From the NCBI GenBank assembly GCA_964395615.1, contig CAYNDU010000020.1, positions 1 through 22,307 of the forward strand: DNA of 22,307 nt, in the 5' to 3' direction. A program made the translations under genes and the position numbers. Under the pieces are notes generated by a model. It saw only the letters and a program-made list of their open reading frames with translations. It did not search any database and had not been told where the DNA came from. This document shows positions 5,518 through 20,168 of the stretch, piece after piece. This DNA comes from an uncultured Pirellulaceae bacterium (GTDB lineage Bacteria; Planctomycetota; Planctomycetia; Pirellulales; Pirellulaceae). Every line of letters begins with the position of its first letter. Position 1 is the first letter of the stretch.

Positions 5518-6381
5518 TCACTCATCGATCGACGGCGGCTCGACCTGGGGAAAAACACCTTCGGAGCCGTAGAACTTGGTCAAATCGATCCCGCCACGCT
5601 GCTCGTCTTCCAAGAGCTTTACACGAACCTCCAGCCGCTCAACCTGCCGCTTGAGCCTTGGGAGAAGGTGCACGGTCTCGTCGGGCGGTGCAGGACGAGG
5701 GACGCGCGGATACCCCAAATGCCGTTGCAGGGACTCGAACAGATAGAGCGGGTCCTTTCGCCGGTTGGCCAAGGCTATCTTCCCCTCCTTTTCCCCAAAT
5801 AGGATCGGTTGGTCGACCGGCGAGGCTCCGCGCCGCCGGGCTTGTCGAGTGACGTAGTACTGGCTGCGAACGTACATCAGATCCGCGAAATCAACGATGC
5901 CGATCTGGCGGCGTACCGTCTGGATCCAGTCCCGCCACAACTCGTCAAACACCGGGTCCTGAGCGACGGCGTCGAGCCCCTTTTCGTAGCGCAAGCGATT
6001 TCGGCATAACGACTCGAACTGGTACATGAAGAGCCCTTGAGTCGTAGCACCAGCTGCCCGATATTCGGCCTCATACCGAAGGATCTCCAACGCCATGCGT
6101 AAGTCAAATCGGCCCTTTTCGTCCTCCGCCTCGTTGACGACGTAGGTCTGAAAGGGAGTAAAATAATGGGCCAGCTGAGCCATCGCAGAGCCCATGACAC
6201 CCAGGTGCTTCAACTCTCCCAACAGAAAGTCGATGGCCATCGGCAGTTTCGTGGTTGCCAGAATCTCCTCGCGTAATTGGGCAAACAGCTCCTGTAGCGG
6301 CATGTTTTCACGGATCCGCCTTCCCAGAGAGCGAAAAAAATGCGCCTGCTCAATGTATTCCTCATGGTCCAGATTCGGCAT
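5518..6381 (-). CDS. Hypothetical protein, 287 aa (track ORF extends to a TTG at 6429)
   Basis: This is a long ORF with protein-like composition (MPNLDHEEYIEQAHFFRSLGRRIRENMPLQELFAQLREEIL...). The ATG at 6381 is preceded by GGGGGGATCTGGGGAG (Shine-Dalgarno-like). The track's upstream start at 6429 is TTG with no RBS. I recognise no family or motif. Confidence 0.55.
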   Translation of the reverse strand: MPNLDHEEYIEQAHFFRSLGRRIRENMPLQELFAQLREEILATTKLPMAIDFLLGELKHLGVMGSAMAQLAHYFTPFQTYVVNEAEDEKGRFDLRMALEILRYEAEYRAAGATTQGLFMYQFESLCRNRLRYEKGLDAVAQDPVFDELWRDWIQTVRRQIGIVDFADLMYVRSQYYVTRQARRRGASPVDQPILFGEKEGKIALANRRKDPLYLFESLQRHLGYPRVPRPAPPDETVHLLPRLKRQVERLEVRVKLLEDEQRGGIDLTKFYGSEGVFPQVEPPSIDE

Positions 6382-6708
6382 CGATGCACACTCCCCAGAT
6401 CCCCCCTTTCGGTCCACATTCTGCCCCAACCGCTCGGCCCGTATCCTACCAGTAAGTCGCCTCCGAGTGTGCTTCGGAGTGACCGTTTGGCGTCTGAGTC
6501 ACGATATCTCCATCATCTGTCAGGCTCCCGAATGCCACCGGTATAACTCGGCTCACCGGTGCTTTTGGGACCACCTCCCAGGTTGGCCGTCGAACGATCG
6601 GCCCCTACCCAGGCAGGAAATCGCACGAGACCGTCCGTTTTGACCGATTGTATTCGCCGCCGCGCTCGGGTGTTCCGTGCAGAGACCCTGTCGATCCAAT
6701 TGCAGACA

Positions 6709-9417: not shown

Positions 9418-12357
9418 TTATCGAGACGCCGTTCTGCTTTTCAGTAACTTGCGGATCTCCGGTTCCAGCTCGGTTACCCTGTGACCGACCGCGACGATCG
9501 TTCCCTCACGGTTCAACACCATCATGGTTGGTATTCCCGATATGCCGCTATCGGTCGCCACTTGCTGAGCATCGCTGCCAACCACGTTTGTCCAGGGTAT
9601 CTTCTTTTCGTCCAGAAAAGCGGCGAGTTTTTCCTGGTCCTTGTCCAGGCTGATCGCCACCACCTCGAGGCCCTCGCCGTGCAGTTGATCGTACAGATCG
9701 CGCAGGTGGGGGTACTCGCGAAGGCAGGGTCCACACCAGGTGGCCCAAAAATCGACCAGCACGACCTGGCCACGGTAACTGGGCCAGTCAAGGGGGACGC
9801 CAAGGGCCGTCTTCTTGTCAGACAAATCCAGCGGCGTGCCGACAAGGTCATTCGTCTCGGCCCCTCCGGACTTGGCGATCTTGCGGCCGTACCGAGCCAG
9901 TTGATTGTCTCGGCTTTTCGCGAACAGCTTGCCGAACTGGCCAAAATAATCCTGGCGTTCGTCGTCCTTTTCCAGGCGATTGATCAACTTGACGGTCGAC
10001 GACGCGAGGCGTAAGTGCTGTTTGATCAGTTTCTCTTGAGCAGAGAAGTACTTGTCCAACCGAGCCAGAAAGGGCGGGATTTCGGTGACCGGCAGCTCCA
10101 CCGCCTCGATCGTCTCGCGTTCCAAGCGAAAAAATGCCACCTGTTCGGCGATCGCCGAGCGGGGATCCGAAGCCATTTGGGAAACGAATTCCATCAGCTG
10201 CCGATCCGATTGCTCGTCGTCCAGACAGGCTCTCTCGTGGAGCGTTTTGAATTTTACGAGAGCGGCATAGACCTGGTACCGGCTCTTCGTCTCTGCCGCT
10301 ATCACTCGAGTCGCCGCTTCGACGATCGCTTCAGCGAAGCCCGGCCGCCGCTGGATGCTCTGCGGCTTCTCTTCCATGTCCATCAAGTAATCGACCAGCC
10401 CGGCCGGCGTCAAACTGGCCGAAGCCAGGTAGGGATTCGAGTCCTCGGCAACCTCCGGCAATTCCAGTTTCTGGGACGGACCGTCGTCATCCGAAGCATC
10501 CGCCGTCCTTGCCGCCGTCACTACCATATGCGCCAGTCCGGCACCCGTCGCCGGTCGATCCGTTGTCGAATCGTCATTCGCGATTTCGGCCACGAGTCCG
10601 GCCCATTTCAACTGGGTGCCGCTCGGCGAGTGTTCGCGCCGTATAGAGCCTTGTTTCGACGGTCCGGGACCCGCGGCCGGTTGCTTCGTACCGGGCGTCG
10701 CCCCAGCCGGTTCCGGGGGGCCAAGCAATTCAGCCAACTTCTGGTCAAGTGCCTGCCCGCGGACGTGCAGTTCTTGAACGATTCCCTGGCGGTCAAGCAG
10801 CACGACAAACGGAATCGTCTCGACGCCACATTGGTCGGCCAGCGCGTTATTCGAGATCGTCACCCAGGGGAGTTTTTCGCTCTCCAGGAACTGCCGAACC
10901 GTCGCGGCATTCTGATCGAGGTTCACGCCGATTACCTCGAATCCCTTGTCCCGGTAGGCTTCATAGTTCTTGCGAACGTTGGGCATCTCCTGCAGACAGG
11001 GCCCGCACCAGGTGGCCCAAAAATCGACCAGTACGATTTTCCCCTTGTAACGAGCGAAATCGAAGGCCGTTCCGTCCATCAATGTACCTTCGATTACGAG
11101 CGGTTTTCCGACCAACTCCAGTCGCCGTCGTGCCTGTTGTACGCGCCGTTGGGCGTTGGCGACCAGCTCTTGATCCTTGGATTTTGCGAACGCCAGCTCG
11201 ATCGAATCACAGACTTGGATGCCCAGAGCATATTTTCCCATCTGTTCCAGCATCTCCGCCGTCTGCGTCGCCCTGTCCAAGACAATGGGCCCTGGGTTGG
11301 GGCGGGCCATCATTTGGCTGAAAGCGGTCGTAAAGGCCTGCTCCGCGTCCTTCTCCTCCAAGGCAATGGCACGCAGCTTTGCGTCCAGGTCGAGATCAAG
11401 AATATCGAGCTGTTGGAACATGTTGGCTGCTTCGGCGGCGACCTCCGGGTCCTTGTGGTTCTTGAATGCTTCGGCCGTCATTCGAAAGGCAGTCCGAGCC
11501 TCCTGCTCGCGACCAAGTTGCCTCAACACCAGCACCAGCTGCTGGCAAACTGCCTGGACTTCGCCGTTACGCGCCTCGTTGGCCAAAAGCGCCTGCAGGT
11601 CCGTCATGAGGCCCTCCGTTCCCGCCCCACCTTTCTGGGACACTTCCCCAATGTGCAAACCGAACAAGATGGTCCGGCCGCGAATGGCCAGCTCGGGGTC
11701 TTTGTCCGCTGCCAGCGTCTGTGCAAACGCCTTGACTTCATCGACACGTGAGCGTTCGGGCGAGAGCTGGCTCAACGCAGCCAAGGCGTTCAGTTTTGCC
11801 TCGATCCCCGTCTTTTTCTGGACGGCATCGAGCGGGCTTGATGCCAGCAGCTTGTCAGCCACTTCCAATCGTCGATCGAAGATGGCCCGCATCTTATCGA
11901 GCACGGTGTTTTCACTGCCGGGCGCCGGGCGTCCTTGCATCTGCAGATCGCGGTATTGCTGGTCGAGTTTCTTGAGCGCCTCGACCAACTGAACGGGAGT
12001 GGCGTCCGGCGGTACGATGACCGGGTCGAGTTTGTCGCTGGTTATGGTCGGCGGTTGCTCGGGAACACCGCCGGAGGGCTGCATGGATGACCGCTGACCG
12101 CCCGTCGACCCAACCGGTGCAGACGGCGTCGCTCCGGCTGTATCCGACGCATCACCGGTCCCGCCTCCGTCCGTCGATTCGACGCCCGGGGAGTCCTCGG
12201 CAACTTCCCATTTCTTCTGGCTCGATTCGGCGTCTGCCGAATCGGACGAGCTGCATCCGAACGACACGACGGCGATCGACAGCAAACAAGCCGACGGAAG
12301 TGCATACAGGGGCATCCATCTGCGGAAATCGGGTCGAGGTTGCCGGACTGTACGCAT
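9418..12357 (-). CDS. Large exported multidomain thiol:disulfide oxidoreductase with two TlpA/ResA-like thioredoxin domains, ~979 aa (track ORF to GTG at 12429 = 1003 aa)
   Basis: Two thioredoxin-fold CxxC modules with TlpA-style context are present: VLVDFWATWCGPCLQEMPNV...GFEVIGVNLD and VVLVDFWATWCGPCLREYPHL...LEVVAISLD. Each is preceded by a long helical module, and the two halves are separated by a Pro/Gly-rich linker (GPPEPAGATPGTKQPAAGPGPSKQG). The N-terminus looks like a signal peptide with a lipobox-like VVSFGC. The ATG at 12357 has GGAG 8 nt upstream. The track's start at 12429 is GTG. Confidence 0.85.
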   Translation of the reverse strand: MRTVRQPRPDFRRWMPLYALPSACLLSIAVVSFGCSSSDSADAESSQKKWEVAEDSPGVESTDGGGTGDASDTAGATPSAPVGSTGGQRSSMQPSGGVPEQPPTITSDKLDPVIVPPDATPVQLVEALKKLDQQYRDLQMQGRPAPGSENTVLDKMRAIFDRRLEVADKLLASSPLDAVQKKTGIEAKLNALAALSQLSPERSRVDEVKAFAQTLAADKDPELAIRGRTILFGLHIGEVSQKGGAGTEGLMTDLQALLANEARNGEVQAVCQQLVLVLRQLGREQEARTAFRMTAEAFKNHKDPEVAAEAANMFQQLDILDLDLDAKLRAIALEEKDAEQAFTTAFSQMMARPNPGPIVLDRATQTAEMLEQMGKYALGIQVCDSIELAFAKSKDQELVANAQRRVQQARRRLELVGKPLVIEGTLMDGTAFDFARYKGKIVLVDFWATWCGPCLQEMPNVRKNYEAYRDKGFEVIGVNLDQNAATVRQFLESEKLPWVTISNNALADQCGVETIPFVVLLDRQGIVQELHVRGQALDQKLAELLGPPEPAGATPGTKQPAAGPGPSKQGSIRREHSPSGTQLKWAGLVAEIANDDSTTDRPATGAGLAHMVVTAARTADASDDDGPSQKLELPEVAEDSNPYLASASLTPAGLVDYLMDMEEKPQSIQRRPGFAEAIVEAATRVIAAETKSRYQVYAALVKFKTLHERACLDDEQSDRQLMEFVSQMASDPRSAIAEQVAFFRLERETIEAVELPVTEIPPFLARLDKYFSAQEKLIKQHLRLASSTVKLINRLEKDDERQDYFGQFGKLFAKSRDNQLARYGRKIAKSGGAETNDLVGTPLDLSDKKTALGVPLDWPSYRGQVVLVDFWATWCGPCLREYPHLRDLYDQLHGEGLEVVAISLDKDQEKLAAFLDEKKIPWTNVVGSDAQQVATDSGISGIPTMMVLNREGTIVAVGHRVTELEPEIRKLLKSRTASR

Positions 12358-12574
12358 GAGAAGACTCCATACAACAAGAAAAAATACGCGGGTCCCGCTT
12401 GGGAACCAATTACTTCGACGGCCGGTCACTCCAGCGGTCCCATTGTAGGAGATTGCCGTGGGGCAGGCACCCCCGATTTGGAGCCCACGGATCTCGCCCG
12501 GATCGCGTCGGATCGCGCCAAAATCATAGCTCCCGCGTGGATGTGCGACGACGTCGAGCCGCTACTCTCTAAGC

Positions 12575-13750
12575 TCAATCGGTCGTCGGAACCGCCGATG
12601 ACGTTAACAGCCGGTTTAGAAGTCGCTCCAATTCATCGCCCCGTGCCGATAACGAGACGACCTTGCCCTGAGCATCGACAAGGATCATCACCGGGATCGC
12701 CATGATTCCGTATTCCCGGACGGCCGAGTTCTGTCCCTTGTCACTTCCCGGATGCAATGTGATCCAGGGCAGTTTCGCTTCCTGCACGTATCGATCCAGT
12801 GCTTTACGGTCGACGTCCAGGCTGACACCGACAATCTCAAAGCCCCGGCGATGGAAACGCCGGTAGACATCCTTGAGTCGTTGATGTTCGGCCACGCAGG
12901 GTTGGCACCATGAGGCCCAGAAATCGATCAACACGGCTTGCCCCCGCAACTGATCGATGGAGAAGACGCGTCCGTCCAGCCTATGGCCCTGCAACGAAAG
13001 GGGTCTTCCAGGAAGGGCCATTCGCCTCGCCGCACCGGAAAACACGGCTGCCATATCACGGATCTCCAGGTCCTCACTGCCCGCGGCCAGCCGGGCAAAG
13101 GTCGTGTACGCTTCCTCTGCCAAGAGCCGGTCGCTCTGTTCGAGTTGCTGTGCCACCTGTTGAGCAAGGCCGATATCGCCCGGACCCAAAGGGCCCCTGG
13201 CTCGCTTCCACCGCAGCAATTCCTGCCATTTCTGGTATTGGTCCGCACGTTCTTTTCCCGACAAATCACCGGCCGAACGAATTCGATCACGCAAGAGAAT
13301 CTCGGTCGACTTCCAATAGGTTGTTGACTTTGGTTCGACGGGTAGAGCCAACAGCCGCTTGGCGGCGGCTACGAGTGCCACAGGTGCGTCACGTTGGTAA
13401 CGGAGCAGATCATTGGTGTCGACTGGCTCGTACTGTTGGATTCTGTCGATAAACGCGTCAAGTTCAGCCACATCGCCCTGCGGAACATCGAAAAACGAAT
13501 CAGGTGCCGCTTGCTCTTCGTGCTCCCCGTACTCCTCGTACTCCTCGTCCGGTTCAGCGGAGCGTCGAATCCGAGCTGCATCGTCATCGGCCGGATGGGG
13601 CCCAATCTCGGCTTCGCTGTGGCACCCCGCCAGGCAGCAGAGGAAGATGGTCGCCAGTCGGCGCGGGCTCGAAGACGTCACTTGTTTGCCGATCGATGAC
13701 GATCGCGGGCACGGAAGGAGTCGAAAGAGGTGGTGTGCTAACGCGGCCAT
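12575..13750 (-). CDS. TlpA/ResA-like thiol:disulfide oxidoreductase, probable lipoprotein, 391 aa (or 368 aa from GTG 13681)
   Basis: The C-terminal thioredoxin module reads AVLIDFWASWCQPCVAEHQRLK...GFEIVGVSLD...KLPWITLH. The N-terminal helical module is paralogous to those in the adjacent large protein. An internal GTG at 13681 would give the N-terminus MTSSSPRRLATIFLCCLAGC, a textbook lipoprotein signal with an LAGC lipobox. Both candidate starts have weak RBS. Confidence 0.85.
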   Translation of the reverse strand: MAALAHHLFRLLPCPRSSSIGKQVTSSSPRRLATIFLCCLAGCHSEAEIGPHPADDDAARIRRSAEPDEEYEEYGEHEEQAAPDSFFDVPQGDVAELDAFIDRIQQYEPVDTNDLLRYQRDAPVALVAAAKRLLALPVEPKSTTYWKSTEILLRDRIRSAGDLSGKERADQYQKWQELLRWKRARGPLGPGDIGLAQQVAQQLEQSDRLLAEEAYTTFARLAAGSEDLEIRDMAAVFSGAARRMALPGRPLSLQGHRLDGRVFSIDQLRGQAVLIDFWASWCQPCVAEHQRLKDVYRRFHRRGFEIVGVSLDVDRKALDRYVQEAKLPWITLHPGSDKGQNSAVREYGIMAIPVMILVDAQGKVVSLSARGDELERLLNRLLTSSAVPTTD

Positions 13751-13845
13751 GGGTCAGTGTCCCAAGTGTTGCGTCCCGACGTGACCGGCACGGTCCTGGG
13801 CCGAGAACGGTTACGCATGATCTACGGCAAAGCCAAACGTGGAGA

Positions 13846-15759
13846 CTAACCGCCTTCTCCGTGATAATCCACGATGGTTTTCCATGCTTCTTCGGGCGAT
13901 TCGGCGAACGAGATCAGCGACAGGTCCTCGTCATCGATGACACCCTCATCTGCCAGGAATTGGAAATTGATCACGCGGGTCCAGTAGTCGCGACCGAAGA
14001 GCACAATGGGGATCTGCTGCATCCGCTCTGTTTGACGCAAAGTCAACGCGTCAAACAGCTCATCCAATGTCCCAAATCCACCCGGAAAAACGACCAGCGC
14101 CCGGGCTCGCATCAGAAAATGCATCTTGCGCAGCGCGAAATAGTGAAATTGAAAGCAGAGTTCCGGAGTGATGTACGCATTGGGCTGCTGCTCGGAGGGC
14201 AGCGTAATGTTGAGCCCGATCGATTTGGCCCCGGCTGAAAACGCACCGCGATTGGCCGCTTCCATGATGCCGGGCCCTCCCCCGGTCATGATGACATAAT
14301 CGCACTTGCCCTCCGTTTGGCATTGCGACGAAACTAACTGTCCGAATTGACGAGCGGCGTCGTAATACTGGGACTTCTCCAGCACTCGGCGCGCACGGTC
14401 GACCTTCCGACGGCGTACAATGTCGTCGGGTTGTTCATTTAGCCGAGCTTCCGCATGGGCCAATTTGCTTTCTGCATGAGGTCGTTCGAGGATCTGGGTT
14501 CCGCCGAAGACGACAATCGTCGAGTCAATGCCTTCGCGGATGAAACTCAACTCCGACTTGAGTAACTCCAATTGCACTCGAATCGGCCGAAGCTCCGGCT
14601 GGCTCAACAAATCAATGTCCTGTTCCGGCAGTAAGTAACTAGGTGACGCGAGGATCTTTTCGAGGTTTTTTGCCTGGTCCCCAGATGCAGCTTCCATGAT
14701 GGTCCCTTCTTTGGAATAGGAGTGGCTTGACGGGCGATCCGCGACGCGGATCCGGCCGATAAGACCGGCCATGGCGACCGTCACCACGATCAGCCCGAAT
14801 CCTGTTGTGTAACGCATCTCGACGGATAACTGAGGTAGTAGTTGAGCGAGGTATCTCCAGCTCAGGATATAAGTATAGGTGGCGATACTGAGCCATCCGA
14901 ACCAACCGATCCTGGCCAGACGCCGCCATCCGGTTCTAGCCAGGCCCTCCAGAAGGTGTCCAGTCGTAGCCACCATGCAGAGGACCACTGCGGCTTGCCA
15001 TCCGAGATAAGCACCCGCCGTTGCCGCCCCAAGCGTCGATACCCGTTCCGGTCGCCCCTCAGGTTGGGAAGGGCGATGGCCGAACGCGAGACCGATGCGA
15101 ATCAGCCAGCCGACCAGTCCACCTACGGCAGCGCCGATCAAACTCGTCGATCCCGCTACCAGTCGCGAAGGCAGGCCGCTGCCCGACCAGGCGAAGACGG
15201 CGTGCAGGTAAGGGAACAGCCACGGCGCGGCGAGTCCGACAAGCAACGCGGGCAAGAACAAGCGTAACGGTATCTCATGGCGATCGGCGAAGATCATCGC
15301 AGCCGCCAATAGGGTCGAAAGCAGCAGGGCATGGAAGGTGAACAGCACCCACATCTGTTCGATGGTTCGATAGTAGTATTCGACCGTCCCCGCATCGCCA
15401 GGCAGGTTTCGTCCGGAGCGAAACGTCTCGCACAGTGCCAACCCGAGGAACAGGCTGGCGATCAGCAATTCGGTCAGCGGGTATCGGATAGAGATCCAGG
15501 TCCTGCAATCGCGACAGCGACCTCGCAGGACAAGCCAGCTGAAGAGCGGAACATTGTCATACCATCGAATGGCGTGCAGACAGACCGGACAGCGAGAACC
15601 GGTGGTCGCGAAATCGATCCCAATGGGAAGCCGCATTACGACGACATTCAGAAAACTCCCCACGCAAGCACCGACAAAGAAGATCCAGATCGCCAGAAAG
15701 ACGAGCATTGCGTCCGGCAATAACAGGATGAACTCAGTGGCCGTGTCAGCGTGGAGCAT
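13846..15759 (-). CDS. Fusion protein: type IV prepilin peptidase (A24/PilD)-like N-terminal membrane domain + C-terminal PpnN/LOG-family (Rossmann nucleotide-binding) domain, 637 aa
   Basis: Residues 1-110 read [12 protein letters not shown]...[10 protein letters not shown]...[31 protein letters not shown]. This is the PilD N-terminal domain with its tetracysteine CxxC...CxxC. It is followed by hydrophobic TM segments containing the first conserved Asp context (IFADRHEIP). Residues 414-637 carry the LOG signatures [23 protein letters not shown] (GGGxGxMEA) and [10 protein letters not shown] (PGGxGTxxE). The reading frame is continuous with no stop between the two halves. Confidence 0.85.
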
Positions 15760-15817
15760 ACCGGACGATCTTACTCATTCCAGAGGGGGTTCTATTGGTC
15801 GTATTCGCGTCGAACAA

Positions 15818-17650
15818 TCAGAGGAAGGGCGCCAGTGGACCGCCACGCGTCGCCAAAGCGTCAATGCGCCGACTAACATCGGCGTCTTCGACCAAGGGTG
15901 GCGCATGATGAGGTTTTGCGCGAGCGTCGATGACCAACGGCCCTTCGCACCCCCAATGCTTGTCGCGACAAAAGGCTCCCACACCACTAATATCTGTTGC
16001 CGGGTTGCTGCGCGTAAAGACCGCCCAAAGAAAATTGTCCAGCGACTGAGCCACAAAACGGCTGTCATCGACCACAATCAACAGAGCGAAGTCGGCATAC
16101 TGGCCTGTCGCGCGCAGCGATCGGCAGAGTTCTTCGATATCGTCTCGAGCCGTGCCGGTTGCCGCAGGTCCCTGGATCGCCACAACACCCGGCAAAACGA
16201 GCGTCGGTTCCGAAAATCCCGCCGGCAGAACGTGCGGGTCGGTAAAGGTCACGGGCAACGCCCGCCGCACGGGTCCGGAAGCCGCGACCACCAACTTGGA
16301 GCCCTCATTGATGCACGGGCCCGTGTAATCGAGCGTGTCAATGGTCGTCTCCGTCTGAAAGTGCAAATCGCGGCGCCAGTCAACTCGCCGCAATAAGTGA
16401 TCAAGAAACTTGCCAATATCGAACAGGTCCAAATCAGGATTGTCCTGGCCGTTCACGATCAGCAGGTACTTGGCCAGTGACATTTGCCCCTGTCCCAGGA
16501 TGGCATTGGCTTGAGTTAGCAACTCCCGCGGCCTGGACTGACCGTCGTACGGGGCGTATCGCTCGCTGCCGATCGCCAACATCAGCGGGTGGACGCCTGC
16601 CGCGTCAACTGCGTGGACAGCTTTCAATCCCGGGATCAACGTTGGGACAACCGGGGCCGTTATTTCATGGATCAGCTCTCCGAAAACCGTATCCTCCTGT
16701 GGAGGCCGGCCGACGACCGTGAACGGCCAAATGGCTCCCTTTCGGCAGGTCACTTGCTCAACTCGGAGAACGGGAAACCCATGTTGCAAGCTGTAATAAC
16801 CCAGATGGTCTCCGAAGGGTCCCTCGGGCTTCAGCTGATCCGGATCGATGAATCCCTGGATACAGAAATCCGCTTCCGCATAAACGGGCAACCGATCGGG
16901 CCGGCAGATCATCGGGATTCTGTGCCCGGCCAACGCACCGGCAAAAGTTAACTCCGACATGCCCTCCGGGAGCGGCATCACGGCTGCCAGCATCATGGCC
17001 GGAGTGCCACCGACAAAGACATTGACCGGTAACGGTTCACCCCGCGACAGTGCCGCCGTGTGATGCACGCCGATGCCTCGGTGAATCTGGTAATGCAAGC
17101 CGACTTCGCGATTCGCCACGTAAGAACCGCCGCCCAGCTGCACGCGATACATGCCCAGGTTGCTCTCTGCCATTCCCGGGCGTTCCGGGTGCTCGGTGTA
17201 AACCATCGGCAGCGTCACATAAGGACCGCCATCATCGGGCCAGGATTGCAGCTGTGGCAACTGGTCAATCGTCAATTGCTCCCCAAAGACCGGGCCCGTG
17301 CGCTTTCGGCGAGGCCGCATGTGCGCCACGGTCGGCAATGATGACAGAGATTGAAGAGGCCGGCGAAGAACCTGGGTCGGATCCAGTTTCAATTCGATCA
17401 ATCGCCGCACGTGATCCAGTTGGCGCCGAAAAATAAACCGAGCACGCTCGAGGGAGCCAAAAAGGTTCGAGACCATCGGAAACCGGCAACCCTTGACATT
17501 CTCAAACAGGACCGCCGGGCCGCAGCTGCGAAACACGCGTCTTTGTATTTCGGCAGCTTCGAGCCTCGCGTCGACAGGATCTGAGAGCCGGACCAGGTGT
17601 CCGGACCGTTCCAAATCCGCGACGCAGTGCTGCAGGGTTCGGTACGTCAT
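15818..17650 (-). CDS. UbiD-family (prFMN-dependent) decarboxylase, 610 aa
   Basis: The N-terminus (MTYRTLQHCVADLERSGHLVRLSDPVDARLEAAEIQRRVFRSCGPAVLFENVKGCRFPMVSNLFGS) aligns by eye with the E. coli UbiD N-terminus (LRDF..LE..GEL.RI...VDP.LEI.EI.DR....GPALLFEN.KG...PV..NLFG). It is longer than the canonical 490-500 aa UbiD. It ends 58 bp upstream of the next same-strand gene. Confidence 0.88.
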   Translation of the reverse strand: MTYRTLQHCVADLERSGHLVRLSDPVDARLEAAEIQRRVFRSCGPAVLFENVKGCRFPMVSNLFGSLERARFIFRRQLDHVRRLIELKLDPTQVLRRPLQSLSSLPTVAHMRPRRKRTGPVFGEQLTIDQLPQLQSWPDDGGPYVTLPMVYTEHPERPGMAESNLGMYRVQLGGGSYVANREVGLHYQIHRGIGVHHTAALSRGEPLPVNVFVGGTPAMMLAAVMPLPEGMSELTFAGALAGHRIPMICRPDRLPVYAEADFCIQGFIDPDQLKPEGPFGDHLGYYSLQHGFPVLRVEQVTCRKGAIWPFTVVGRPPQEDTVFGELIHEITAPVVPTLIPGLKAVHAVDAAGVHPLMLAIGSERYAPYDGQSRPRELLTQANAILGQGQMSLAKYLLIVNGQDNPDLDLFDIGKFLDHLLRRVDWRRDLHFQTETTIDTLDYTGPCINEGSKLVVAASGPVRRALPVTFTDPHVLPAGFSEPTLVLPGVVAIQGPAATGTARDDIEELCRSLRATGQYADFALLIVVDDSRFVAQSLDNFLWAVFTRSNPATDISGVGAFCRDKHWGCEGPLVIDARAKPHHAPPLVEDADVSRRIDALATRGGPLAPFL

Positions 17651-17877
17651 TGAGACATTCTTCGCTATTTGTTACGACGGCAATCGGCCCAGCGACTCAA
17701 GGATCTCTTTATCCGGCGCCTCTTCACGCGGCGGCCGTCCTTGCTCTACAATACGTCGATTGCTTAAACATAACTACCTGAATCAAACGACAACAGGCCG
17801 GCACGCGTGTCCAGCCAATTGGGCAGGTACGGTCGGACGGATCGTGTCCTGTCCCATCATCCAGAGGAATTTCATCC

Positions 17878-19338
17878 ATGACCAAACTGCTTCCTGCCGA
17901 ATCAACTGTTCTGGAAAATGAAGCGGACGCCGTTGTCGTTGGGCTGCACACCGACCTCATGCTGTCAGGGAAGATCGCCGAGGTTAATGAAGCGACCGGT
18001 GATATGCTCGCACGGCTGATTGCGCAACAGGAATTGCACGGGAAAGTCGGCGAAGTCATGCGATTCATTGAGCCAAACGGTTTGAAAGCGAGCAGGCTGG
18101 TCGTCGTGGGACTGGGTGATCGTGAAGAGCTGGGACCGGGAAACGTCGGTCGAGCGGCGGGGGCAGCTGCCAAGAAACTGGCTGCCACACATTGCCGCCA
18201 GGCTGCTTTCTATTTTGATCCCGAATGGGAATCGAGCTGGTGCGTTGCCGGTCTTGTCGGAGCGTATTCGGGTTGCCGAGGACAAGACCTGTACCGCACC
18301 GATAAGAAGCTGGTTCCGCTCGACGCGATCCAATGGGACGGTGCCGCGGAACGAGATCTGCTGGAAGCTGGTGTGATCGGGCAGAGTATCGATTTGACGC
18401 GACAATTAATCAACGAACCGCCGAGTCAGATGAATCCGCGGGCGTTTGCCGATCGAGCGGCATCGGAATCCGCCAAGACGGGCCTCGACTGTGAAGTCTG
18501 GGACCAGACTCGGCTGGAGCAGGAGCGATGCGGCGCTCTTCTGGCCGTCGCACGCGGGTCGGCACAACCGCCGTGCCTGCTAATACTCAAGCATCGGGGG
18601 AATCCTGACTCGGAGGAATGCCTGGCGCTCGTCGGCAAAGGAGTCACGTTCGATTCCGGCGGCCTGTCGCTCAAGCCGAGCGAAGGAATGAAGACGATGA
18701 AGTGTGACATGGGCGGAGCAGCCACCGTTCTCGGCGCCATGTTGGCAATTTCAAAGTTGCAGGTGCCGTTAAACGTGGTCGGGTACGCCGGACTTGTCGA
18801 GAATATGGTCAGTGGCGATTCTTACAAGTTGGGCGACGTTCTCACGGCTCGTAGCGGCACCAGGATCGAGGTGCTTAATACCGATGCCGAAGGACGCCTC
18901 GTGTTGGCCGATGCGCTGAACGTGGCTGTGTCTCAAGGTGCTTCCAGAATAGTCGACCTCGCCACTTTGACCGGAGCATGCCTGGTTGCGCTGGGACTCG
19001 ATGTTGCCGGCGTGATGACGAACAATCAGGATTGGTGTGATCAGGTGTTATCCGCCGCCGGCGGTTGTGGTGAGGCTGCGTGGCAACTGCCGATGTTCGC
19101 GCAGTTCAACGAGCAAATCGAAAGTGACGTCGCCGACATCAAGAACGTTGGAGAAGGGCGCTGGGGTGGGGCCATCACGGCAGCAAAGTTCCTCGAGCGG
19201 TTTGTCGAGGATCGGCCTTGGGTGCATATCGACATCGCCGGACCTTCGTTTTCCGAAAAGCCCAAATCGTGGCTCGACGCGGGTGGTACAGGAGCTTTTG
19301 TGCGGTCACTGGTCCAATTGGCACGAAATCTTGCCTGA
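17878..19338 (+). CDS. pepA: Leucyl aminopeptidase, M17 family, 486 aa
   Basis: The M17 signature NTDAEGRL is present (VLNTDAEGRLVLADAL). Metal-ligand regions GKGVTFDSGG and DMGGAA are also present. The length is typical. ATG at 17878 has AGAGGAA upstream. Confidence 0.92.
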   Translation: MTKLLPAESTVLENEADAVVVGLHTDLMLSGKIAEVNEATGDMLARLIAQQELHGKVGEVMRFIEPNGLKASRLVVVGLGDREELGPGNVGRAAGAAAKKLAATHCRQAAFYFDPEWESSWCVAGLVGAYSGCRGQDLYRTDKKLVPLDAIQWDGAAERDLLEAGVIGQSIDLTRQLINEPPSQMNPRAFADRAASESAKTGLDCEVWDQTRLEQERCGALLAVARGSAQPPCLLILKHRGNPDSEECLALVGKGVTFDSGGLSLKPSEGMKTMKCDMGGAATVLGAMLAISKLQVPLNVVGYAGLVENMVSGDSYKLGDVLTARSGTRIEVLNTDAEGRLVLADALNVAVSQGASRIVDLATLTGACLVALGLDVAGVMTNNQDWCDQVLSAAGGCGEAAWQLPMFAQFNEQIESDVADIKNVGEGRWGGAITAAKFLERFVEDRPWVHIDIAGPSFSEKPKSWLDAGGTGAFVRSLVQLARNLA

Positions 19339-19520
19339 TCCGGCCCGTCCGGGGCCTGCCGAATGGGCCAAGAAAGACGGCCGGAGTGCGAATAGACGTT
19401 AGTTTCTTTGACCTGGGTGCCGGCTGTCCGGCCGTTGGCCGAGTACGGTCGGTCGCGGTAGACTATACGCAATTTCCTGAATTCACCCGATCATCACATC
19501 ACTCGAAGGGGTCTTCGGTC

Positions 19521-20168
19521 ATGTACACGCTGTATCTCTGTTGCGCTTTGCTGGGCGGGACTGTGTTCATTATGCAGTTTGTCCTGGCTGTCATCGGCGC
19601 GGGGGCCGATGATCTGGACTTCACGGGTGACATGCCCGACGGCGTTGACATGCCCGACGTGGGGGATCTGTCGGACCATGCGGCCGGCCATGGATCAACG
19701 TGGCTCTTCGGGGTGATTTCGTTTCGAACGGTTGTCGCGGCGATGACGTTTTTCGGGCTTGCGGGGATGGCATCGTTGGAGACGAACCTAAGCGGTCCAT
19801 TCACGCTCCTTGTTGCATTGGCAGCCGGCGCGGTCGCCATGCTCAGCGTACATTACCTCATGCAGTTGCTTTACAAGCAACGGCATGATGGTACGGCTCG
19901 TATTGAGCGAACGGTCGGTCAGCGCGCGAGCGTCTACGTTCCGATCCCGGCCGCAAACTCGGGGCTGGGAAAAATCCAGATCAGGACGCAAGGCCGGATC
20001 ATGGAATATGCCGCCAAAACGCCCGCCGATTGCAAACTGACCACCGGCACGACCGTGCAAGTTACCGCCGTGCTGACTCCTTCTACCGTGGAGGTGGAAC
20101 CTTTGGTGGAGTCTGTCGACGGATTGCCACCGGAGGATGCCTCACCCGATCCGGGCGAATCAGCCTGA
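19521..20168 (+). CDS. NfeD-like membrane protein (short YuaF-type), 215 aa
   Basis: ATG at 19521 is preceded by GAAGGGG. The track ORF from 19218 is an upstream in-frame extension that overlaps pepA. It has N-terminal TM helices (LYLCCALLGGTVFIMQFVLAVIG; WLFGVISFRTVVAAMTFFGLAG; LLVALAAGAVAML) and a C-terminal beta-rich, OB-like segment. It lies immediately upstream of a flotillin gene, matching the conserved NfeD-flotillin pairing. It carries an Asp-rich insert (DDLDFTGDMPDGVDMPDVGDLSD). Confidence 0.7.
   Translation: MYTLYLCCALLGGTVFIMQFVLAVIGAGADDLDFTGDMPDGVDMPDVGDLSDHAAGHGSTWLFGVISFRTVVAAMTFFGLAGMASLETNLSGPFTLLVALAAGAVAMLSVHYLMQLLYKQRHDGTARIERTVGQRASVYVPIPAANSGLGKIQIRTQGRIMEYAAKTPADCKLTTGTTVQVTAVLTPSTVEVEPLVESVDGLPPEDASPDPGESA

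What the first reader, a model, noticed from the sequence alone, without database searches (positions are those of the whole stretch)
13846..15759. Prepilin-peptidase-like membrane domain fused in frame to a PpnN/LOG-type nucleotide-processing domain
The first roughly 345 aa have the unmistakable PilD/A24 N-terminus (GSFLNV..RLP, SRCPxC...RGRCRxC tetracysteine, RYPxxEL) and multiple TM helices. The last roughly 225 aa carry both LOG-family signatures, GGGPGIMEA and [10 protein letters not shown]. They are preceded by the longer PpnN-style N-terminal stretch (YYDAARQFG). I know of no standard family with this architecture. By eye, the second catalytic Asp of PilD (the G-x-G-D-x-K-L motif) seems to be missing. 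The nearest candidates are AVGGLVGW and GLAFGHRP. The membrane domain may therefore be a non-catalytic scaffold that localises a nucleotide 5'-monophosphate nucleosidase or ligand-binding module to the membrane. A continuous frame with no stop argues against two adjacent genes.
Basis: partly seen in the sequence, partly recalled or inferred. Interest (0 to 1): 0.78.

Follow-up and report, generated by a model that had tools for sequence, protein, structure and literature searches.

The report
Dead prepilin peptidase fused to LOG enzyme
One gene in this planctomycete encodes a nine-helix membrane protein related to the enzyme that trims pilus subunits, lacking a key catalytic residue, joined to an apparently intact nucleotide-cleaving "LOG" enzyme; the join is real and inherited across a bacterial family, arose from two neighbouring genes, and its purpose is unknown.

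Summary
Window 13846..15759 (-) is one 637-aa ORF with an A24_N zinc-finger domain (PF06750, 1.6e-30) and a LOG domain (PF03641, 6.4e-30). It is not an artefact: more than 100 sequence clusters, mostly Pirellulaceae and including Pirellula staleyi, share the full-length architecture at 41-55 % identity.

The two halves are separate neighbouring genes across Planctomycetota, in a conserved block: M17 | UbiD, A24-like, (beta-CASP), LOG, SDR, thioredoxin-like. Some lineages keep only a mini zinc-finger protein, and some lack the A24-like gene at this locus. The fused form alone has a ninth helix that returns the LOG to the cytoplasm.

Best reading: a membrane-tethered LOG phosphoribohydrolase on a non-proteolytic A24 scaffold. 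I found no paper describing it. It is a new variant of known kinds, of moderate interest.

The parts
13846..15759 (-). Whole fusion gene, 637 aa plus stop codon
   Evidence: Single ORF. The full-length architecture is conserved in more than 100 clusters.
15631..15714 (-). TM1 (aa 16-43), N-terminus outside
   Evidence: AF2 helix 16-43, hydropathy and positive-inside counts.
15436..15675 (-). A24_N domain (aa 29-108): cytoplasmic four-Cys zinc-finger module with GSFLNV, C57/C60/C82/C85, G80-R81 and RYP-x-x-E
   Evidence: PF06750 E 1.6e-30. These residues are invariant in A1. In PilD this domain binds zinc and is needed for N-methylation (PMC3584216).
14839..15486 (-). Degenerate A24 peptidase core, TM2-TM8 (aa 92-307)
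15289..15291 (-). F157, the position aligned to catalytic Asp1 (PaPilD D149)
   Evidence: hhalign. Family column: R34, E32, D24, other 20.
15283..15285 (-). D159, a near-invariant Asp two residues downstream, possibly a register-shifted Asp1
   Evidence: D in 99 of 110 family members and in 141 of 146 representatives.
15037..15039 (-). S241, the position aligned to catalytic Asp2 (the GxGD Asp, PaPilD D213)
   Evidence: hhalign. Asp in only 2 of 110 family members and 3 of 146 representatives; a GxGD motif occurs anywhere in only 4 of 146.
14995..15003 (-). G253-W254-Q255, the retained PilD 'GWQ' motif twelve residues after the lost Asp2
   Evidence: Near-invariant in A1. Same motif in E. coli GspO and in PilD.
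14737..14811 (-). TM9 (aa 317-341), an extra helix found only in the fused form, which returns the chain to the cytoplasm
   Evidence: AF2 helix 317-341. Genuinely split homologues stop after TM8, with no TM9 in any frame. Topology.
14686..14733 (-). Disordered linker (aa 343-358)
   Evidence: pLDDT below 50; the sequence is variable in A1.
13849..14682 (-). Type-II LOG domain including its N-terminal extension (aa 360-637)
14257..14283 (-).
   Evidence: Invariant in A1.
14128..14130 (-). R544, the catalytic Arg (CgLOGII Arg155)
   Evidence: Alignment to 5WQ3, residue numbering from PMC5379747, invariant in A1.
14059..14085 (-). PGGFGTLDE (aa 559-567), the PGGxGTxxE motif with the type-II-specific D566 and the catalytic E567
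   Evidence: Aligned to D177 and E178 of 5WQ3; invariant in A1.
15818..17650 (-). Upstream syntenic neighbour: UbiD-family decarboxylase
   Evidence: Pfam UbiD_N, UbiD and UbiD_C. Best NCBIfam hit is mena_SCO4490, below its cut-off. It lies directly upstream of the A24-like gene, or upstream of beta-CASP and LOG where that gene is absent, in 17 of the 18 loci that hold a UbiD gene; in L024 it lies downstream on the other strand.
12575..13750 (-). Downstream syntenic neighbour: ResA/TlpA-like thiol-disulfide oxidoreductase
   Evidence: Pfam and NCBIfam. It recurs downstream of the LOG in other Planctomycetota loci.

Best explanation
The gene encodes a nine-helix inner-membrane protein. Its N-terminal two-thirds is a paralogue of the bifunctional prepilin peptidase/N-methyltransferase PilD. 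This part keeps the A24 fold and an intact cytoplasmic zinc-finger module but lacks the GxGD aspartate, so it cannot work as a two-aspartate intramembrane protease. Its C-terminal third is a type-II LOG with all catalytic residues intact, that is, a nucleoside 5'-monophosphate phosphoribohydrolase that releases a purine or cytokinin-type base and ribose 5-phosphate. A ninth helix, present only in the fused form, places the LOG on the cytoplasmic face, next to the zinc finger. The fusion arose in the Pirellulaceae lineage from two genes that are neighbours in a gene block conserved across Planctomycetota. Shown: the domain identities, the loss of Asp2, retention of the LOG catalytic residues, conservation of the fusion, the split state in sister lineages, and a sequence-based topology. 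Inferred: that the LOG is enzymatically active, that the membrane half acts as an anchor or partner rather than a protease, and that tethering matters for function.
Against: No activity has been measured for either half. D159 is nearly invariant and could be a displaced Asp1, and about 30 % of members carry Glu at the Asp2 column, so an unconventional active site in some members is not excluded. The window protein itself has F157 and S241. The partnership is dispensable in some lineages: at the syntenic locus the A24-like gene is truncated to a mini zinc-finger protein, or absent (L021, L032), while the LOG is kept. The fusion may therefore add little function. Type-II LOGs are hexamers (PMC5379747), and whether a hexamer is compatible with a 9-TM anchor is untested. 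AF2 inter-domain geometry could not be inspected, and the pTM of the full model is only 0.62.
Confidence: 0.6

Rival explanations
1. Functional coupling through the zinc-finger module. The A24-like half is not a mere anchor. It retains PilD's second activity, zinc-dependent N-methylation, or at least binding of type IV pilin-like proteins cleaved by another peptidase. The LOG is physically coupled to it because the two act in one process.
For: The four Cys, the Gly-basic pair before Cys3 and RYP-x-x-E are invariant or nearly so, and these are the PilD determinants of methylation (PMC3584216). The zinc-finger module persists alone as a conserved mini-protein of about 110 aa next to the LOG gene, or one gene away from it, in at least 8 species-level genomes. 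The A24-like and LOG genes are associated (fused, adjacent, or within 2.5 kb) in about 23 Planctomycetota loci.
Against: No pilin or pilus-assembly genes lie in the 22-kb window. A beta-CASP gene, a toxin-antitoxin pair or a small ORF can sit between the two genes. At the syntenic locus the LOG persists without any A24-like gene in L021 and L032, and outside the phylum. There is no known chemical link between SAM-dependent methylation and LOG substrates, because S-adenosylhomocysteine lacks the 5'-phosphate that LOG substrates carry.
Confidence: 0.2
2. Neutral neighbour fusion. Loss of a stop codon joined two syntenic but functionally unrelated housekeeping genes. The product is tolerated, each half works or idles independently, and tethering has no adaptive meaning.
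For: The block also holds functionally unrelated genes (M17 aminopeptidase, UbiD, beta-CASP RNase-like, SDR, thioredoxin-like). In sister lineages the two genes are separate, interrupted or partly lost.
Against: The join is not a simple read-through. Fused proteins carry an extra hydrophobic TM9 and a linker, absent from the split forms, which restores a cytoplasmic location for the LOG. The fused state is maintained over divergence down to 41 % identity in more than 100 clusters.
Confidence: 0.15
3. SLOG-type sensor. The LOG-fold domain binds a nucleotide ligand and regulates the membrane domain, as SLOG domains do in TRPM channels and ThsA, rather than turning over substrate.
Confidence: 0.04
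4. Assembly artefact or pseudogene: two ordinary genes joined by a sequencing error.
For: Error-prone assemblies do distort this locus, but in the opposite direction: L082 and L083 show fused genes split by frameshifts.
Against: Independent assemblies from NCBI, ENA, JGI and Logan, including the finished genome of Pirellula staleyi DSM 6068 (P0112), carry the intact fused ORF. The conserved TM9 and linker are specific to the fusion.
Confidence: 0.01

Closest known systems
PilD / GspO-type prepilin peptidase and N-methyltransferase (MEROPS A24A; Pfam PF06750 + PF01478)
   Same: Same N-terminal architecture: TM1, a cytoplasmic four-Cys zinc-finger domain, then a polytopic core. The homology holds by profile comparison over 261 columns. 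The retained motifs are I-x-x-D...P, D-x-x-x-G-x-x-x-G and GWQ. The core has the FlaK-like fold.
   Different: The GxGD aspartate is absent, and the Asp1 position is not conserved (F157 here). PF01478 does not score. There is a ninth TM helix and a C-terminal enzyme domain. No pilus or secretion genes lie nearby.
Type-II (hexameric) LOG, e.g. C. glutamicum Cg1261 (5WQ3), T. thermophilus TT1465 (1WEK), N. meningitidis YgdH (9US2)
   Different: It is covalently tethered to a 9-TM protein, whereas the known type-II LOGs are soluble. It has a longer extension with a conserved SPSY...ELRPVR.QLELLK segment and a helical hairpin of about 60 aa (aa 426-482) between the first strand and the GGGPG loop. 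It scores just below the TIGR00730 cut-off (90.9 against 96.35 bits).
PpnN (YgdH of E. coli; nucleotide 5'-monophosphate nucleosidase)
   Different: The PpnN model scores only 28.6 bits against a cut-off of 450.
iRhom-type intramembrane pseudoproteases (conceptual analogue)
   Same: A polytopic intramembrane-protease fold that has lost catalytic residues, is conserved, and has gained extra domains (PMC6451368, listed).
   Different: A different protease clan (rhomboid serine protease rather than GxGD aspartyl protease), eukaryotic, with no enzyme fusion. The comparison is an analogy only; no regulatory role has been shown here.

Membership tests
Prepilin peptidase A24A (PilD/GspO) | N-terminal four-Cys domain (PF06750 A24_N_bact) | tested here: met
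   105.4 bits, E 1.6e-30, aa 29-108. C57, C60, C82 and C85 are invariant.
Prepilin peptidase A24A (PilD/GspO) | Peptidase_A24 core scoring above the Pfam gathering threshold (PF01478) | tested here: not met
   No hit at E <= 1 on the whole protein or E <= 10 on the isolated core. The PilD control P0226 scores 93.5 bits; the best family member, P0075, scores 18.2 bits, below the threshold of 26.5.
Prepilin peptidase A24A (PilD/GspO) | Homologous polytopic core with the A24/GxGD-protease fold | tested here: met
Prepilin peptidase A24A (PilD/GspO) | First catalytic Asp (PaPilD D149) | tested here: inconclusive
   The aligned residue is F157, and the family column is R34, E32, D24. The near-invariant D159 two residues on could be a shifted equivalent, with Asp-to-Pro spacing of 5 instead of 7.
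Prepilin peptidase A24A (PilD/GspO) | Second catalytic Asp within GxGD (PaPilD D213) | tested here: not met
   The aligned residue is S241. Asp occurs in 2 of 110 family members and 3 of 146 representatives; GxGD occurs anywhere in 4 of 146.
Prepilin peptidase A24A (PilD/GspO) | Cleavage of prepilin leader peptides | not testable with these tools
   This needs a biochemical assay.
Prepilin peptidase A24A (PilD/GspO) | Genomic association with type IV pilus or type II secretion genes (supportive, not strictly defining) | tested here: not met
   None among the ORFs of the 22-kb window that were scanned. The conserved neighbours are UbiD, beta-CASP, SDR and thioredoxin-like genes.
LOG, type II (hexameric) | LOG domain above the Pfam gathering threshold (PF03641) | tested here: met
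   104.5 bits against 27.
LOG, type II (hexameric) | PGGxGTxxE motif and catalytic Arg and Glu | tested here: met
   P559-E567 is [10 protein letters not shown]544 and E567 align to Arg155 and Glu178 of 5WQ3 and are invariant in A1.
LOG, type II (hexameric) | Asp immediately before the catalytic Glu (type-II signature, position 177) | tested here: met
   D566 is invariant. The criterion comes from PMC5379747.
LOG, type II (hexameric) | Closest solved relatives are type-II LOGs, and an N-terminal extension is present | tested here: met
LOG, type II (hexameric) | Hexameric assembly through the N-terminal helix | not testable with these tools
   No multimer prediction was available. Whether a hexamer is compatible with a 9-TM anchor is unknown.
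LOG, type II (hexameric) | Phosphoribohydrolase activity | not testable with these tools
   This needs an enzyme assay.
TIGR00730 (NCBIfam subfamily) | Score at or above the curated cut-off | tested here: not met
   90.9 bits against a cut-off of 96.35: marginally below, a borderline member.
PpnN (NF038390) | Equivalog score at or above 450 bits, with flanking PpnN-specific domains | tested here: not met
28.6 bits covering only the LOG core.

The most novel reading that the evidence does not exclude
Planctomycetota have a conserved family of GxGD-less 'pseudo-prepilin-peptidases'. Their functional core would be the membrane-flanked zinc-finger module, acting as a stand-alone pilin N-methyltransferase or as a membrane adaptor. 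In Pirellulaceae this module would be physically coupled to a type-II LOG, so that purine or cytokinin-type nucleotide cleavage takes place at, or is controlled from, the cytoplasmic membrane. That would be a bacterial counterpart of iRhom-like intramembrane pseudoproteases with an attached enzyme.
Probability: 0.15. Interest if true: 0.65.

Novelty: new variant of a known kind. Interest (0 to 1): 0.45.

Why it matters
Both building blocks are well known, but this combination and the state of the peptidase half are not described in any paper I could find. Public annotation labels these proteins 'prepilin peptidase', 'TIGR00730 family' or 'AMP nucleosidase'.

Three points have some value.

1. 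The label 'prepilin peptidase' is probably wrong for a whole family that is widespread in Planctomycetota, because the GxGD aspartate is gone. This affects inventories of pilus and secretion systems in a phylum that encodes very many pilin-like proteins (from my own knowledge, not tested here).

2. The family would be, as far as I could find, the first recognised bacterial pseudo-enzyme branch of the GxGD intramembrane proteases. The mini-proteins that contain only the zinc finger isolate the module that PilD needs for methylation, which could help to work out what that domain does.

3. A membrane-tethered type-II LOG is new for a family whose physiological role outside plant-associated bacteria is still unclear. 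The gene-order series (separate, adjacent, fused with a new TM helix) is a clear example of how a fusion across the membrane can be made topologically viable.

None of this solves a long-standing problem, and the function remains inferred.

Tried and rejected
- phmmer of the membrane half against PDB sequences found only noise, E about 0.9.
- Foldseek of the N-half model against PDB found nothing significant, best E 0.29. AFDB50 was not available.
- My first column mapping with hmmalign was wrong, because the PilD control did not give D/D. I discarded it and redid it with mafft --add plus controls. Even there the Asp2 region of the distant controls misaligned, so the Asp2 position rests on hhalign and on the GWQ-anchored offset.
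- The exhaustive representative search seemed to show that unfused forms dominate. Inspection of the top two (P0241, P0244) showed that they are frameshift-split fusions on error-prone contigs, so I do not use that list to estimate the fused-to-unfused ratio.
- The listing of cluster members gave no taxonomy.
- I looked for other N-terminal fusions or anchors on this LOG subfamily and found none among the 80 loci.
- PpnN membership was rejected.
- The idea that the UbiD (menaquinone-type) neighbour points to a futalosine-pathway role for the LOG was considered and dropped for lack of evidence. The block also holds unrelated genes, and the UbiD protein is below the equivalog cut-off.
- Rfam and tRNA scans of the window found nothing.
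- I could not test whether the same genomes also encode a canonical PilD with both aspartates.
Full report

Yes. Window 13846..15759 on the minus strand is a single 637-aa ORF. It starts at the ATG at 15759, 58 nt downstream of the stop codon of the preceding UbiD-like gene. Pfam finds A24_N_bact (PF06750, aa 29-108, E 1.6e-30), the LOG family (PF03641, aa 499-628, E 6.4e-30) and, more weakly, SLOG cluster 4 (PF18306). The peptidase core model PF01478 gives no hit, even when the central 256 aa are scanned alone at E <= 10.

A search of 5.8 billion proteins returns 341 relatives. More than 100 clusters (90 % identity) cover 95-100 % of the query at 41-55 % identity and have the same three Pfam domains. 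None of them carries PF01478. Where sources name them, they come from Pirellulaceae or other Planctomycetota MAGs, and from the finished genome of Pirellula staleyi DSM 6068 (P0112). A stop codon lost during assembly cannot explain that.

**2. The membrane half is a genuine but degenerate prepilin-peptidase homologue.**

I collected 118 database PilD proteins, all carrying PF06750 and PF01478, using my recollection of P. aeruginosa PilD only as bait. I added E. coli GspO.

- Profile-profile alignment of 110 family N-terminal halves against this set gives probability 100 %, E 1.7e-42, over 261 columns.
- With the zinc-finger domain removed from both sides, the cores still align at 96.2 %, E 2.6e-9, over 133 columns. 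Ten column-shuffled controls give E >= 0.018.

The alignment places PilD's catalytic D149 on F157 and D213 (the GxGD Asp) on S241 of the window protein.

- Across 110 family members the Asp1 column reads R34, E32, D24 and others. The Asp2 column reads E32, P32, A16 and others, with Asp in only 2.
- Among 146 representatives from an exhaustive HMMER search, Asp2 is Asp in 3, GxGD occurs anywhere in 4, and none has Asp at both positions.
- Retained features are D159 (99 of 110), P164, a D-x-x-x-G-x-x-x-G helix and G253-W254-Q255, which match PilD's IDxD...P and GWQ motifs.

One caveat: D159 could be a register-shifted Asp1, so the loss of Asp1 is ambiguous. The loss of the GxGD aspartate is not. 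A two-aspartate mechanism is therefore not available to this protein.

**3. The zinc-finger module is intact.**

G30, G34-S35-F36, N38-V39, R43, P45, S55, C57, C60, N69, P71, C82, C85, R92-Y93-P94 and E97 are invariant. In PilD the four cysteines bind zinc, which is needed for N-methylation of the cleaved pilin but not for cleavage. A Gly and a basic residue before the third Cys also contribute (PMC3584216). The family has G80 followed by R, K or H at position 81.

**4. The C-terminal half is a type-II LOG, not PpnN.**

- By sequence, the best solved relatives are TT1465 (1WEK, 2.9e-37), C. glutamicum type-II LOG (5WQ3, 9.3e-37), 5ZI9 and 9US2. PpnN structures score about 1e-4.
- The NCBIfam PpnN model scores 28.6 bits against a cut-off of 450. 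TIGR00730 scores 90.9 bits, just under its cut-off of 96.35.
- According to PMC5379747, type-II LOGs are hexamers built through an extra N-terminal helix. They use Arg155 and Glu178 for catalysis and have Asp at position 177. The window protein's R544, D566 and E567 align to exactly these residues and are invariant in the family.

**5. Topology.**

The AF2 helices are 16-43, 92-112, 133-158, 169-181, 198-225, 237-252, 254-277, 285-307 and 317-341. A disordered linker follows at 343-358. If the zinc finger is cytoplasmic, as in PilD, this gives 9 TM helices with the N-terminus outside and the C-terminus inside. Averaged over the family, the predicted cytoplasmic loops carry 15.1 K+R and the predicted periplasmic loops 3.4. 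The zinc finger and the LOG are therefore on the same, cytoplasmic, side.

**6. Where the fusion comes from.**

A scan of one genome per GTDB species gave 80 loci. I classified them with my own HMMs for the three parts and by reading the junctions in all frames.

- Fused: L002, L003, L004, L017 and probably L008, all Pirellulaceae-like.
- Genuinely separate adjacent genes: L013, L018, L026, L039, L040 and L053. The A24-like ORF stops after TM8, no TM9 exists in any frame, and the LOG has its own Met start. A PIN-type toxin-antitoxin pair (L039) or a small 2-TM ORF (L053) can lie between the two genes.
- A24-like gene and LOG separated by a gene of about 460 aa for an MBL/beta-CASP hydrolase: L023 (Planctomicrobium piriforme), L035 and L049.
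- A mini-protein consisting only of TM1, the zinc finger and TM2 (about 110 aa, with a conserved ...ATPWL stop). It lies next to the LOG in L022, L025, L034, L045 and L068, or before the beta-CASP gene in L016, L024 and L029.
- No A24-like gene at this locus: L021 and L032 (Bythopirellula polymerisocia).
- Stand-alone LOG of about 285 aa, 53-60 % identical, in Nitrospira, Zixiibacteriota, Gemmatimonadota, Acidobacteria and Proteobacteria.

The planctomycete loci share one gene order: M17 aminopeptidase (divergent) | UbiD-type decarboxylase, A24-like, (beta-CASP), LOG, (pteridine-reductase-like SDR), ResA/TlpA-like thioredoxin. The window has this order. TM9 is specific to the fused form, so the join was not a bare read-through.

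A rough NJ tree of LOG domains puts most fused forms in one clade. The mini and beta-CASP-only loci form a sister clade, and the split forms are more basal. L004 and P0114 sit apart, which may reflect a second fusion event or an artefact of the method.

**7. A caution on the exhaustive search.**

With the N-half profile, 21,367 proteins score E <= 1e-3 and 4,008 score E <= 1e-30. These counts include canonical PilDs, which match through the shared domains. The best 150 are mostly 280-400 aa long. The top two 'unfused' hits lie on contigs where M17 and UbiD are also broken. They contain TM9, and the reading frame jumps inside the linker straight into the LOG. They are split by assembly errors. 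That list therefore cannot be used to say that the unfused form predominates.

**8. Interpretation.**

The best-supported model is a membrane-tethered, catalytically competent type-II LOG carried on a non-proteolytic PilD paralogue with an intact zinc-finger module.

- Shown: domain identities, residue states, conservation, topology by sequence rules, and the evolutionary series of gene arrangements.
- Inferred: enzymatic activity of the LOG, inactivity of the protease, and any benefit of tethering.

The main rival is that the zinc-finger module still methylates or binds pilin-like proteins and is functionally coupled to the LOG. The separately conserved mini-proteins favour it. The lack of pilus genes nearby and the dispensability of the A24-like gene at this locus in some lineages count against it. 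A neutral fusion of neighbours remains possible, but the fusion-specific TM9 and the long maintenance of the fused state argue against it. A SLOG-type sensor role and an assembly artefact are both unlikely.

**9. Novelty.**

Four full-text searches found no paper on this architecture or on A24 pseudo-peptidases. Databases hold the proteins under automatic names only. It is a new variant built from known kinds. It is moderately interesting to specialists in type IV filament biogenesis, pseudo-enzymes and LOG enzymes, but it does not resolve any major open question.

Noticed in passing
L022 9917-10306; L025 9878-10306; L034 9890-10306; L045 9755-10303; L068 9941-10306; L016 2124-2558; L024 4804-5184; L029 6743-7084: Mini-proteins of about 110-125 aa consisting only of TM1, the four-Cys A24_N zinc finger and TM2. 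In seven of the eight loci (all but L016) they end in a conserved ...TPWL or ...SPWL stop. They sit in the same syntenic slot as the full A24-like gene. PF06750 E 2e-28 for the L022 copy. They look like a conserved stand-alone version of PilD's methylation-associated module.
   Followed up: partly
window 12575-19338 and loci L013, L016, L018, L021, L022, L025, L026, L029, L032, L034, L035, L039, L045, L049, L068, L083: A gene order conserved across Planctomycetota: M17 aminopeptidase (divergent) | UbiD-type decarboxylase, A24-like, (beta-CASP hydrolase), type-II LOG, (pteridine-reductase-like SDR), ResA/TlpA-like thioredoxin. Such conservation is unusual for a phylum said to have little operon structure (from my own knowledge).
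   Followed up: partly
L039 10878-11570: An ORF of about 230 aa that looks by eye like a PIN/VapC-type toxin-antitoxin pair (no domain scan was run) lies between the A24-like gene and the LOG gene.
   Followed up: no
L040 about 10885-11020: The intergenic region between the A24-like gene and the LOG gene is a tandem repeat; in one frame it reads QLPTPNSQLPASNFQLPTSNSQLPT.
   Followed up: no
L053 about 10880-11140: A small ORF of about 85 aa with two hydrophobic helices (MTENPYQSP...) lies between the A24-like gene and the LOG gene.
   Followed up: no
window 9418-12429 (-) and 12575-13750 (-); L083 7920-12097: Tandem thioredoxin/redoxin-fold genes lie downstream of the LOG. In the window these are a 1003-aa protein with two redoxin domains and a 391-aa ResA/TlpA-like protein. 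L083 has three such genes in a row.
   Followed up: no
window 15818-17650 (-): The UbiD-family protein is 610 aa long, with about 150 aa beyond the UbiD_C domain that match no Pfam family. Its best NCBIfam hit is the futalosine-pathway menaquinone decarboxylase model mena_SCO4490, but below the cut-off (364 against 496 bits).
   Followed up: partly
L082 6001-7907; L083 6001-7684: Error-prone public assemblies split the fusion gene and its neighbours M17 and UbiD by frameshifts. The pieces enter protein databases as separate 'prepilin peptidase' and 'LOG' proteins. This inflates the apparent number of unfused forms.
   Followed up: yes
window 5518-6429 (-) and 19218-20168 (+): Two ORFs of about 300 aa have no Pfam hit. 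The second overlaps the 3' end of the M17 gene and may not be a real gene.
   Followed up: no
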